From: the human T2T-CHM13v2.0 reference genome, Homo sapiens
DNA length: 64,000 nucleotides
Reading direction: 5' to 3' (one strand)
Assembly (NCBI RefSeq): GCF_009914755.1
Contig: NC_060925.1
Both the position numbers and the translations under genes were made by a program. Below are positions 47,431 through 49,332 of the stretch, piece after piece; position 1 is the first letter of the stretch, and the number at the start of each line of letters is the position of its first letter. The notes under the pieces were generated by a model. That model saw only the letters and a program-made list of their open reading frames with translations. It was not told where the DNA came from and did no database searches.

Positions 47431-47439
47431 ATATCCTTT
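47431..47439 (+). other. CACNA1E: U12-type (AT-AC) 5' splice site of CACNA1E intron 1; the intron continues past the window end
   Basis: GATTGGCC|ATATCCTTT is a perfect U11 donor consensus and there is no GT at the homology breakpoint. AT-AC introns are established in voltage-gated Ca2+/Na+ channel genes. Confidence 0.95.
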
Positions 47440-49332
47440 CTTGCCCACCATAACTCCCTCTCCCCCTTTGCATTTCTTCGGGTGAAGGGGGGTACCTAGC
47501 ATGGAATGTATCCCCCACCCCTTCCTGGTGCCAATTTGCCCCTTTGCTGAAGCACACTCTTCGGTGCATCTAAGGGGCAAGCTTGGTGCCGTGGAGACCC
47601 GTTTGGGCACTAGTGTTTTTCAAGGTAAGACTTTTGGTTTTTTATTTTTCCTATGTGGAAATCTTTAGTGTCCCTGGGTGCATCCCTTTCTGGGCTGGGC
47701 TTTGTCTGATTCCCAGCCCCCTCCCCACCCCTACTCCCTTCACATGCCGCCCTCTACATAGATTGGGTTGCCCCAATGCTTCCTTTCATAATTAATTCTC
47801 ATTTTCCTTTCTTTAAGCCAGCCACTCTGCCCGTATCCCCACCAACCAGGAGACACCGCACTGTCTTCCTGTAGGGAAGTCAAGGCTCCATGAGGGGATT
47901 TATCAGTTCAGAAGTTCCCAGGGCCAAAACCCTGTGTACAGATAGACAAATGAATAAATAAAACAGGCTTTTGGGTGGGGACTCAGCTAACTCTAGGGAC
48001 TTAAGTTTAAGTTCCACTGAAAGTGGCATGAGTGAGTGTCTGTCAGGGGAGGTGATCTCTGTTGCCACAGCCCAAGGAGCTCAAACTTGGAGTTCTCCTC
48101 TCAGCCAAGAAAGAGCAGCTCATCAGGCCCATCCTGTCCTTGGTCCTTGGTTGGGTACTCTTGCTTCTTAGTGCTTGACCCAGCTGATTGCTCTCCCAGT
48201 ATCCAGGATCCAGGTGGATCGGCTGGGCCTGAATTCATCCGCTGAGGCCAGAGGTGTGCATGCAGTCTCTCTCTCCCTAGCTCCAAAGGAACTGCTCTCC
48301 CCAAAGCACTGGTGGGGGCCATCTCTGATGGTGGTGGTGTCAGGGTGAACAGGCATGGAAGGAGCTTCTTTGCAGGTTTAATCAAGTGCACCAAATGCAG
48401 ACTGCTGATTAGGCAGCTCACTGCCTTGTTCTTCACTAAGGATTGGACGCCTGGCAAGGCCATTGGGAATTGGGGGTGGTGAGGCAGTGAAGGGGATTAG
48501 TAGGAGGCAAGCTAGTGGTCTGGCGTTAAATATGGGGATGGGGTTGGAGACATGGGACTTTGGGAGGGAGATTTGGGAGGGATGCATCTGCAATGGAGGC
48601 CCCTTCTTTTCTCCCCTATTCTCCCTCTTTCCCACCCCCACCGTCCAGGTGTGCAGCAGTGAGGCAGCTGGAGCTGCCTTGGGTCTCTAGTATTAGCCAG
48701 ACACGCGGCTCATTTCCCCCAGGGCCTGGGCATCTCCCTACTCCCCCAACCCCAGTCTCTGGCCTTCCCCTTCTTCTCTAGTTCCCTGCCTCAGCAGCTC
48801 GGTGATTGGCTGGCGCGTGGTGCTTCTAGGCAGCACCCCCTCATTAGAAACGAAGGAGCATCTCTAAGCAGATATTCTTCCTGCTGCTGTTCGCATCCTC
48901 CCACAGCAACCCCGGCTGGGCTTCTCCCTCTCTCCTCTCTGCATCCCGCTCCCCTGCTCCACTCTCACAGAGTGATCCCAGGCCATCCATTGCCTGAGTT
49001 GAACGTATCTAGCTAGGGTGGAGGTTTCGGGCGGGGGAGGGGTCGGGTCCCTGCAGTCACGCCTGCCGGTGCGCTGCACAAAGCGGACAGATCTCATTGT
49101 GTTGTGTGCTGCGGCTGCAAATATTCCTCTAGGCAGTCTACGGATTTCCCAGCTGGGCCCTCCTTTCTCACTCGGCTTCTACGGTTCTCTAAATCTTCCC
49201 ATCCACCAGGTGCTGCCTTGCTGTGCCCCTCTCTTAGGGGCGTGTTTATTCAGACAGGCGCCCTCCCGTTTCTTTGCGGTAGACAAAGCCGCCCAACCGC
49301 CCCGCGGGTGGCAAAGTGTGCCAGCAGCCATC

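What the first reader, a model, noticed from the sequence alone, without database searches (positions are those of the whole stretch)
47431..47990. Candidate first-intron attenuation switch: U11 donor, orphan U1 site and tandem poly(A) signal
Seen, within 560 nt of the exon end: the U12 donor ATATCCTTT (47431), an in-frame stop (47483), a near-consensus major-class donor AAG|GTAAGA (47624/47625), a CFIm-type TGTA (47935-47938), overlapping AATAAATAAA (47953-47962) and a T/G-rich stretch TTTTGGGTGGGG (47969-47980). Established: U1 snRNP at first-intron 5' splice sites suppresses premature cleavage/polyadenylation (telescripting), U12 donors recruit U11 rather than U1, and minor introns are spliced slowly. 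Inference: the real donor of this very long gene cannot supply U1, so the orphan GTAAGA may act as a surrogate U1 guard over the intronic poly(A) site. Full-length Cav2.3 output would then depend on the balance of U1, U11/U12 and cleavage factors. This is the best candidate here for an undescribed mechanism, but it is a hypothesis.
Basis: partly seen in the sequence, partly recalled or inferred. Interest (0 to 1): 0.8.

Follow-up and report, generated by a model that had tools for sequence, protein, structure and literature searches.

The report
CACNA1E minor first intron, latent poly(A) signal
The first intron of the calcium-channel gene CACNA1E is a genuine minor-class (AT-AC) intron, and the nearby major-class splice-site look-alike and poly(A) signal are real motifs but no commoner or better placed than chance allows, so the proposed switch remains an untested idea with published precedents.

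Summary

**Known part.** The U12 donor is real. The intron is 26,466 nt and ends in a TTCCTTAAC branch site plus AC. CACNA1A and CACNA1B have an AT-AC intron at the same codon position.

- Exon 1 has no U1-type site (best 4 of 9 matches).
- GTAAGA at 47625 is the first U1-like site in the transcript.
- The tandem AATAAA at 47953 is the first poly(A) hexamer.

**Against a dedicated switch.**
- AGGTAAGA occurs 3 times against 2.9 expected.
- 6 of the intron's 24 hexamers have a U1-like site within 350 nt upstream.
- The chance of the observed spacing is about 0.17.
- The paralogous introns share no sequence.
- RefSeq lists no exon there.

Poly(A) usage and conservation across mammals could not be tested with these tools.

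**Precedents, so the concept is not undescribed.**
- PTEN: premature polyadenylation in a minor first intron, raised by a U6atac morpholino.
- RNPC3: a conserved U1 site that inhibits cleavage.
- SRSF10: competing minor and major donors tied to an alternative poly(A) site.

**Most likely reading:** an ordinary latent intronic poly(A) signal under generic suppression.

The parts
46937..47430 (+). CACNA1E exon 1 (coding 47165-47430, 88 codons plus 2 bases). It contains no U1-type 5' splice-site-like sequence.
   Evidence: Exon limits come from the hub's RefSeq table. The best match to CAG|GTAAGT inside the exon is 4 of 9.
47431..47439 (+). U12-type (AT-AC) 5' splice site ATATCCTTT of intron 1. 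The intron runs to window position 73896, outside the window.
   Evidence: Searches give the donor. The matching TTCCTTAAC branch site and terminal AC lie 26,466 nt downstream. The same intron position and phase is found in CACNA1A and CACNA1B.
47483..47485 (+). First in-frame stop (TGA) if the intron is retained. The read-through ORF is 106 aa.
47622..47630 (+). AAG|GTAAGA, a major-class (U1-type) 5' splice-site look-alike and the first such site in the transcript (688 nt from the annotated start, 194 nt into the intron). No annotated use.
   Evidence: Searches place it and rank it 4th of 891 GT sites in 47431-64000 by U1 duplex energy. One search gives 7 of 9 matches, all contiguous. One search shows the 8-mer occurs at chance frequency.
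47640..47874 (+). Pyrimidine-rich stretch with 3' splice-site-like AGs ending at 47716, 47761, 47817 (AAG), 47849 and 47874. These are possible acceptors for a small U2-type intron starting at 47625.
   Evidence: Read and scanned. Such sites (at least 13 of 19 pyrimidines) number 75 in 16.6 kb, so they are at background density.
47870..47873 (+). Upstream TGTA, the second UGUA within 100 nt of the hexamers.
47935..47938 (+). TGTA 18 nt upstream of the hexamer.
47953..47962 (+). Two overlapping AATAAA hexamers, the first poly(A) hexamer of any of 12 variants downstream of the annotated transcription start (1016 nt from it, 523 nt into the intron).
47969..47980 (+). G/T-only 12-mer placed where a downstream element of a cleavage site would lie.
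   Evidence: Five of the 20 hexamers in the window's intron part have a 12-of-12 G/T stretch within 60 nt.

Best explanation
Intron 1 of CACNA1E is a bona fide AT-AC U12-type intron, which is already known.

The AAG|GTAAGA at 47625 and the tandem AATAAA at 47953 are most likely ordinary intronic pseudo-sites: one of 15 U1-like sites and two of 24 canonical hexamers in this 26.5-kb intron.

If the signal has any intrinsic activity, it is held down as cryptic first-intron signals generally are. U1 snRNP binds 5'-splice-site-like sequences along the nascent RNA, 47625 among them, and cleavage competes with spliceosome assembly. It is not held down by a dedicated, selected U11/U1/cleavage-factor switch.

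Shown: the anatomy and the chance statistics. Inferred: the silence of the site and the means of its suppression.
For: - **Genuine U12 intron.** ATATCCTTT sits at the exon end. A TTCCTTAAC branch site lies 13 nt before a terminal AC, in front of exon 2, and the intron is 26,466 nt.
- **Same intron in the paralogs.** CACNA1B has ATATCCTG...TCCTTAAC...AC over 836 nt. CACNA1A has ATATCCTTTT...TTCCTTAAT...AC over about 50.7 kb.
- **Literature.** Passages of PMC5224493 name Cacna1e among genes with U12-dependent intron retention.
- **Chance-level motifs.** AGGTAAGA occurs 3 times against 2.94 expected. Sites with at least 7 of 9 matches run at 0.87 per kb per strand. There are 20 sense and 21 antisense hexamers in the intron part of the window.
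- **'Guarded' hexamers are common.** 6 of the intron's 24 hexamers have a U1-like site within 350 nt upstream, and the Monte Carlo P for the observed spacing is 0.17.
- **No sign of a special element.**
  - RefSeq lists no exon beyond 47430 in the window (hub table).
  - No Rfam family reaches significance (best E 0.85).
  - The paralogous introns show no significant sequence similarity (best blastn E 0.24).
- **Suppression need not be U1-specific.**
  - The abstract and passages of PMC13322065 say splicing inhibition in general activates intronic polyadenylation.
  - The abstract of PMC11228486 says U4 knockdown does so too.
Against:
  - Exon 1 has no U1-like site (best 4 of 9).
  - 47625 is the first such site and one of only two in 17 kb with 7 contiguous matches.
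  - 47953 is the first hexamer of 12 variants after the transcription start.
- **The signal has the best simple context in the window's intron part.** Only 3 of 20 hexamers combine an upstream TGTA with a 12-of-12 G/T stretch, and two of those three are this tandem pair.
- **CACNA1A repeats the order.** Its first U1-like sites (+934, +938) lie just before its first AATAAA (+1069). CACNA1B, with an 836-nt intron, has neither.
- **A precedent exists.** In PTEN a signal in a minor first intron is used in normal tissues.
- **A Cacna1e hit is unresolved.** A 2026 preprint lists a mouse Cacna1e cryptic last exon without naming the intron in its main text.
- **Two key tests were not possible.** I could examine neither 3'-end data nor conservation across species.
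Confidence: 0.6

Rival explanations
1. PTEN-PINC-like premature polyadenylation. The tandem AATAAA is a working intronic poly(A) site. A fraction of CACNA1E transcripts ends there as a roughly 1-kb polyadenylated RNA made of exon 1 plus 0.55 kb of intron. The fraction rises when minor-spliceosome or U1 activity is limiting. No specific role for GTAAGA is required.
For: - The first intron is minor, and the signal lies early in it with two hexamers, two upstream TGTA and a G/T-rich downstream stretch.
- In PTEN, the results and discussion sections describe cleavage about 2.5 kb into the minor first intron. It is seen in 12 GTEx tissues and raised by a U6atac morpholino.
- Sites induced by a U1 morpholino are enriched in first introns (passages of PMC13322065).
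Against: - RefSeq has no transcript ending here (hub table).
- No held paper combines CACNA1E with 'intronic polyadenylation' (0 hits), and none of the 12 papers listed (of 148 holding at least two of the four terms) in the telescripting / U1 AMO search mentions CACNA1E.
- The context scores are my own crude heuristics.
Confidence: 0.25
2. Because the U12 donor recruits U11 rather than U1, GTAAGA at 47625 has been selected as a surrogate U1 landing site that specifically shields the poly(A) site 330 nt downstream. Full-length Cav2.3 output then depends on the balance of U1, U11/U12 and cleavage factors.
For: - It is the first U1-like site and the first hexamer in the transcript, in the right order and within 1 kb.
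- CACNA1A has the same order, and CACNA1B has neither motif.
- In RNPC3 a conserved orphan U1 site inhibits cleavage beside a U11-binding element (section 13 of PMC5473595).
- Whether U11 can telescript is stated only as speculation in a review passage (PMC10228655).
Against: - The spacing fits chance: P 0.17 for CACNA1E and 0.10 for CACNA1A, with distances chosen after the fact. 6 of 24 hexamers are equally 'guarded'.
- The 8-mer occurs at its expected frequency.
- The paralogs show no significant sequence similarity (best blastn E 0.24).
- In PTEN, premature cleavage rose after a U6atac morpholino, which does not remove U1 or U11 from the RNA. Progress of splicing, not only donor occupancy, therefore matters.
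Confidence: 0.08
3. SRSF10-like arrangement. The downstream major-class donor at 47625 competes with the upstream minor donor. It splices to one of the nearby AGs (47817 or 47874), creating a short terminal exon that ends at the tandem AATAAA. The resulting isoform is non-productive, with its stop at 47483.
For: - The order is the same as in Srsf10: an upstream minor donor and a downstream major donor, with the major one tied to a premature stop and an alternative poly(A) site (passages of PMC7244321).
- Pyrimidine tracts with AGs lie between 47625 and the hexamers.
Against: - 3'-splice-site-like AGs are at background density: 75 with at least 13 of 19 pyrimidines in 16.6 kb.
- No such exon is annotated (hub table).
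- There is no U12-type branch site between the donor and the signal. The first sense-strand TCCTTRAY in the intron is at 57349.
Confidence: 0.05
4. The motifs act at the DNA or transcription level rather than in RNA 3'-end choice. They would be part of a promoter-proximal regulatory region, with the first U1-type site helping transcription initiation or elongation.
For: - RefSeq functional elements call 46644-47168 and 47169-47692 enhancers (hub table), and the second covers GTAAGA.
- The stretch is single-copy in the genome.
- That promoter-proximal 5' splice sites stimulate transcription is recalled knowledge, not checked here.
Against: - The tandem AATAAA (47953) lies outside both listed elements.
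- No motif or binding data were available to me.
Confidence: 0.1

Closest known systems
PTEN intron 1 / PINC RNA (Elesnawy et al., iScience 2026, PMC13141466; outline, results section 10 and the discussion read)
   Same: The first intron is a minor intron with a poly(A) signal in its 5' part. Full-length output is proposed to trade off against a short polyadenylated RNA made of exon 1 plus intron, and the read-through ORF is short.
   Different: In PTEN the 3' ends were shown by 3' RACE, RNA-seq and GTEx, about 2.5 kb into the intron, and were induced by a U6atac morpholino. For CACNA1E there are no 3'-end data at all. No guarding U1 site is invoked in the PTEN sections I read.
RNPC3 (U11/U12-65K) 3' UTR circuit (Verbeeren et al., PLoS Genet 2017, PMC5473595; passages and section 13 read)
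   Same: U11 binding, a conserved orphan U1 site of moderate strength and a cleavage site interact. Blocking the U1 site promotes cleavage.
   Different: There the U11 site is a tandem U12-donor repeat (USSE) in the 3' UTR that acts as a splicing enhancer, and the U1 site is reported as highly conserved. Here there is a single genuine donor in a first intron, and conservation is untested.
Srsf10 competing minor and major 5' splice sites (Meinke et al., eLife 2020, PMC7244321; passages read)
   Same: An upstream minor donor is followed by a downstream major donor. Use of the major donor is tied to a premature stop and an alternative poly(A) site.
   Different: In Srsf10 the isoforms are annotated, conserved and autoregulated through an enhancer in exon 3. 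Here no acceptor, exon or isoform is documented.
U1 snRNP telescripting of cryptic first-intron poly(A) sites (Kaida 2010 and Berg 2012 as cited; Soles et al. 2026, PMC13322065, passages read)
   Same: A cryptic signal sits within about 1 kb of the transcription start in the first intron of a long gene, with a U1-complementary site upstream of it.
   Different: Telescripting is a general property of many dispersed U1 sites. Nothing here singles out 47625 as a dedicated element, and induction by U1 inhibition is untested for this gene.

Membership tests
U12-type (AT-AC) minor intron | 5' splice site matching /ATATCCTT directly at the exon end | tested here: met
   ATATCCTTT at 47431-47439, after the annotated exon end at 47430.
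U12-type (AT-AC) minor intron | Branch-site consensus TCCTTRAY close to the 3' splice site, and a terminal AC | tested here: met
   TTCCTTAAC is followed 13 nt later by AC, immediately before exon 2, which restores W-P-P-F-E. The intron is 26,466 nt.
U12-type (AT-AC) minor intron | Intron position conserved in paralogs | tested here: met
   CACNA1B and CACNA1A have AT-AC introns at the same codon and phase.
U12-type (AT-AC) minor intron | Removal depends on the minor spliceosome | not testable with these tools
   Literature only. Passages of PMC5224493 list Cacna1e among genes with U12-dependent intron retention in a mouse model of spinal muscular atrophy.
Functional cleavage and polyadenylation site | AAUAAA or AUUAAA hexamer with upstream UGUA and a downstream U/GU-rich element | tested here: met
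   Two overlapping AATAAA, two TGTA within 100 nt upstream and a 12-of-12 G/T stretch 7-18 nt downstream. This is a heuristic only; no trained predictor was available.
Functional cleavage and polyadenylation site | Observed polyadenylated 3' ends | not testable with these tools
   No 3'-end sequencing resource was available. RefSeq shows no transcript end here (hub table). Literature searches gave 0 hits, and none of the papers listed links CACNA1E to this site.
Telescripting-protected (premature cleavage) site | U1-complementary site within about 1 kb upstream of the signal | tested here: met
   AAG|GTAAGA lies 328 nt upstream. The same holds within 350 nt for 6 of the intron's 24 hexamers.
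Telescripting-protected (premature cleavage) site | 3' ends induced when U1 is blocked | not testable with these tools
   Needs a U1 morpholino and 3'-end sequencing in cells that express CACNA1E.
SRSF10-type minor/major donor competition coupled to an alternative poly(A) site | A usable U2-type acceptor defining a terminal exon between the major donor and the signal | tested here: inconclusive
   AGs with pyrimidine tracts end at 47716, 47761, 47817, 47849 and 47874, but at background density. No such exon is annotated (hub table).
RNPC3/SNRNP48-type USSE circuit | Tandem repeat of U12 5' splice-site sequences acting as a U11-dependent enhancer | tested here: not met
   There is one ATATCCTT in the region. 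The other four in the window are at 18502, 25313, 37003 and 39348.

The most novel reading that the evidence does not exclude
Genes whose first intron is U12-type lack the U1 snRNP that a normal first donor places near the promoter. They may compensate with a selected 'orphan' U1 site just upstream of the first intronic poly(A) signal.

CACNA1E (U1-like site at +195, signal at +523) and CACNA1A (+934/+938, signal at +1069) would be two instances. CACNA1B, with an 836-nt intron, needs neither.

The share of Cav2.3 transcripts that terminate early would then respond to U1 availability, for example after neuronal activation, independently of minor-spliceosome activity.
Probability: 0.08. Interest if true: 0.65.

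Novelty: already known. Interest (0 to 1): 0.3.

Why it matters
If the site were used and guarded as proposed, CACNA1E output could be lowered by masking one 9-nt motif with an antisense oligonucleotide. This matters because gain-of-function CACNA1E variants cause a severe epileptic encephalopathy (recalled, not checked here).

It would also bear on an open question that a 2023 review leaves as speculation: whether U11 can do what U1 does in protecting nascent RNA.

A free Cav2.1 N-terminal peptide did not alter wild-type channel function, according to a section heading of PMC4940211. A role for the 106-aa read-through product is therefore not expected from that work.

As the evidence stands, the locus is an ordinary example of a known intron class carrying ordinary cryptic signals.

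Tried and rejected
- **Known RNA family.** An Rfam scan of 46500-48600 on both strands gave one sub-threshold match (E 0.85, 20.5 bits against a gathering score of 60.2), which I dismissed.
- **Repeat origin of the AATAAATAAA.** 47431-48130 matches only itself in the genome. The tool skips very common words, so an old, decayed repeat is not excluded.
- **Conserved block shared with the CACNA1A intron.** blastn of the first 3 kb of each intron gave only 11-22-nt matches with E of 0.24 or worse.
- **A U12-type acceptor near the signal,** which would give a cryptic last exon from the real donor. There is none; the first sense-strand TCCTTRAY in the intron is at 57349.
- **Depletion of sense-strand poly(A) hexamers in the intron.** None was seen: 20 sense against 21 antisense.
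- **Orthologues from other mammals.** No collection offered here holds vertebrate genomes other than the window's own, so conservation was not tested.
- **The Cacna1e cryptic last exon in a 2026 preprint.** The main text does not name the intron and has no mention of U12, U1 or first introns. Its supplements are closed, so it may or may not concern this site.
- **The TDP-43 paper (PMC12672377).** Its CACNA1E event is an annotated cassette exon, not this region.

Full report
**Observation.** Every motif is at the stated position:
- ATATCCTTT at 47431-47439, directly after the annotated exon end
- AAG|GTAAGA at 47622-47630
- TGTA at 47935-47938
- AATAAATAAA at 47953-47962
- TTTTGGGTGGGG at 47969-47980

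Translating from the start codon through the donor gives 88 exon-coded residues, 18 intron-coded residues and then the TGA at 47483.

**The U12 intron is real and already known.** The window's own genome could be searched.
- Exon 2 of CACNA1E lies at window position 73897.
- The intron ends in TTCCTTAAC, 13 further bases and AC. This restores the W-P-P-F-E reading.
- Intron 1 is 26,466 nt.
- CACNA1B has ATATCCTG...TCCTTAAC...AC over only 836 nt at 76% G+C.
- CACNA1A has ATATCCTTTT...TTCCTTAAT...AC over about 50.7 kb. Both introns sit at the same codon and phase.
- Passages of PMC5224493 and PMC12149502 name Cacna1e among genes with U12-dependent introns whose retention changes in a spinal muscular atrophy model.

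- Exon 1 has no U1-type site. The best is 4 of 9 matches to CAG|GTAAGT.
- The site at 47625 is the first U1-like site in the transcript, 688 nt from the annotated start.
  - It is one of only two among eight sense-strand sites with at least 7 of 9 matches, from the transcription start to the window end, that have seven contiguous matches.
  - It ranks 4th of 891 GT dinucleotides in 47431-64000 by U1 duplex energy. That measure allows shifted registers and G-U pairs.
- None of 12 poly(A) hexamer variants (a recalled list) occurs between the transcription start and 47952. The tandem AATAAA is therefore the first signal.
- Its simple context is the best in the window's intron part.
  - It has two TGTA within 100 nt upstream and a 12-of-12 G/T stretch downstream.
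  - Only 3 of 20 hexamers have both features, and two of those three are this pair.
- The stretch is single-copy.

**What speaks against anything special.**
- AGGTAAGA occurs 3 times against 2.94 expected.
- Sites with at least 7 of 9 matches run at 0.87 per kb per strand, and those with seven contiguous matches at 0.148 per kb.
  - By my arithmetic, the chance of at least one in the 522 nt between donor and signal is about 36% and 7% respectively.
- Using the intron's own 15 U1-like sites, a Monte Carlo gives 0.17 for a site within 328 nt upstream of the first signal.
- 6 of the intron's 24 canonical hexamers have a U1-like site within 350 nt upstream.
- Sense and antisense hexamer counts are equal, 20 against 21.
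- A stop after 18 codons is what chance predicts.
- RefSeq lists no exon beyond 47430 in the window (hub table).
- Rfam finds nothing.

**Paralogs.**
- In CACNA1A the first U1-like sites (+934, +938) also precede the first AATAAA (+1069). CACNA1B has neither motif.
- This is suggestive. However, the Monte Carlo value for CACNA1A is 0.10, the distances were chosen after seeing the data, and the two introns share no sequence.
- I treat it as a lead, not as support.

**Mechanistic reasoning (inference).**
- The acceptor is 26.5 kb away. At elongation rates of a few kb per minute (recalled), the signal is exposed for minutes before the intron could be removed by either spliceosome.
- Slow minor splicing therefore adds little. 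What matters is the signal's intrinsic strength and what occupies the nearby RNA.
- Published work shows that suppression of intronic polyadenylation is not exclusive to U1.
  - Splicing inhibition in general activates it (abstract and passages of PMC13322065).
  - U4 knockdown does so too (abstract of PMC11228486).
- In PTEN a U6atac morpholino, which leaves donor recognition intact, raised premature cleavage.

**Comparison with what is known.** The concept is not undescribed.
- PTEN's minor first intron is cleaved and polyadenylated about 2.5 kb in. This yields PINC RNA, is seen in 12 GTEx tissues and is induced by a U6atac morpholino (PMC13141466, results section 10 and discussion).
- In RNPC3 a conserved U1 site of moderate strength inhibits cleavage beside a U11-binding element (PMC5473595, section 13).
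- In Srsf10 an upstream minor and a downstream major donor compete, and the major one is tied to a premature stop and an alternative poly(A) site (PMC7244321, passages).
- A review only speculates that U11 may telescript (PMC10228655).
- For CACNA1E itself:
  - No held paper combines the gene with 'intronic polyadenylation'.
  - None of the 12 papers listed (of 148 holding at least two of the four terms) in the telescripting / U1 AMO search mentions the gene.

**An SRSF10-like reading was considered.** AGs with pyrimidine tracts end at 47716, 47761, 47817, 47849 and 47874 and could accept a small U2-type intron from 47625. They are at background density, with 75 comparable sites in 16.6 kb. 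No U12-type branch site lies between the donor and the signal.

**Verdict.**
- The motifs are real and the U12 intron is genuine and known.
- The proposed switch is neither shown nor excluded, is statistically unremarkable, and has close published precedents.
- The most likely reading (0.6) is an ordinary latent first-intron signal under generic suppression.
- A PTEN-like used site is the main rival (0.25).
- The specific surrogate-guard idea is at about 0.08.
- The decisive data are 3'-end sequencing in neurons, mammalian constraint and mutation of GTAAGA. All are outside these tools.

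Noticed in passing
L003 / L010 (own genome contig C1:144,569,491-144,572,880), outside the window: A processed, intron-less copy of the 5' part of CACNA1B sits on chromosome 1. 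It is 99.5% identical over 441 nt (5' UTR and exon 1) and 100% over the 108 nt that follow (exon 2). The U12 intron is missing exactly, and the open frame there is 249 aa. It looks like a very young retrocopy.
   Followed up: partly
window 46900-46937: A thymine tract of about 35 nt, with a few cytosines, ends exactly at the annotated start of exon 1 at 46937. This is an unusual context for a transcription start. Other transcripts begin their exon at 47164 (hub table).
   Followed up: no
window 45400-46400: The G+C peak (0.63-0.73 in 200-nt windows), which looks like a CpG island, lies 0.5-1.5 kb upstream of the annotated exon 1 rather than over it. The main promoter or additional start sites may therefore lie upstream of 46937.
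   Followed up: no
window 46637-46642, minus strand: An antisense AATAAA lies about 300 nt upstream of the annotated start. That is where upstream antisense transcripts are usually terminated. It fits the known asymmetry of U1 sites and poly(A) signals around promoters (recalled).
   Followed up: no
L004 minus strand, about 565-552 and 433-428 (CACNA1A intron 1, +934 to +1069): CACNA1A intron 1 has two overlapping U1-like sites (within TAGGTAGGTAAAT) 131 nt before its first AATAAA. The order mirrors that in CACNA1E.
   Followed up: partly
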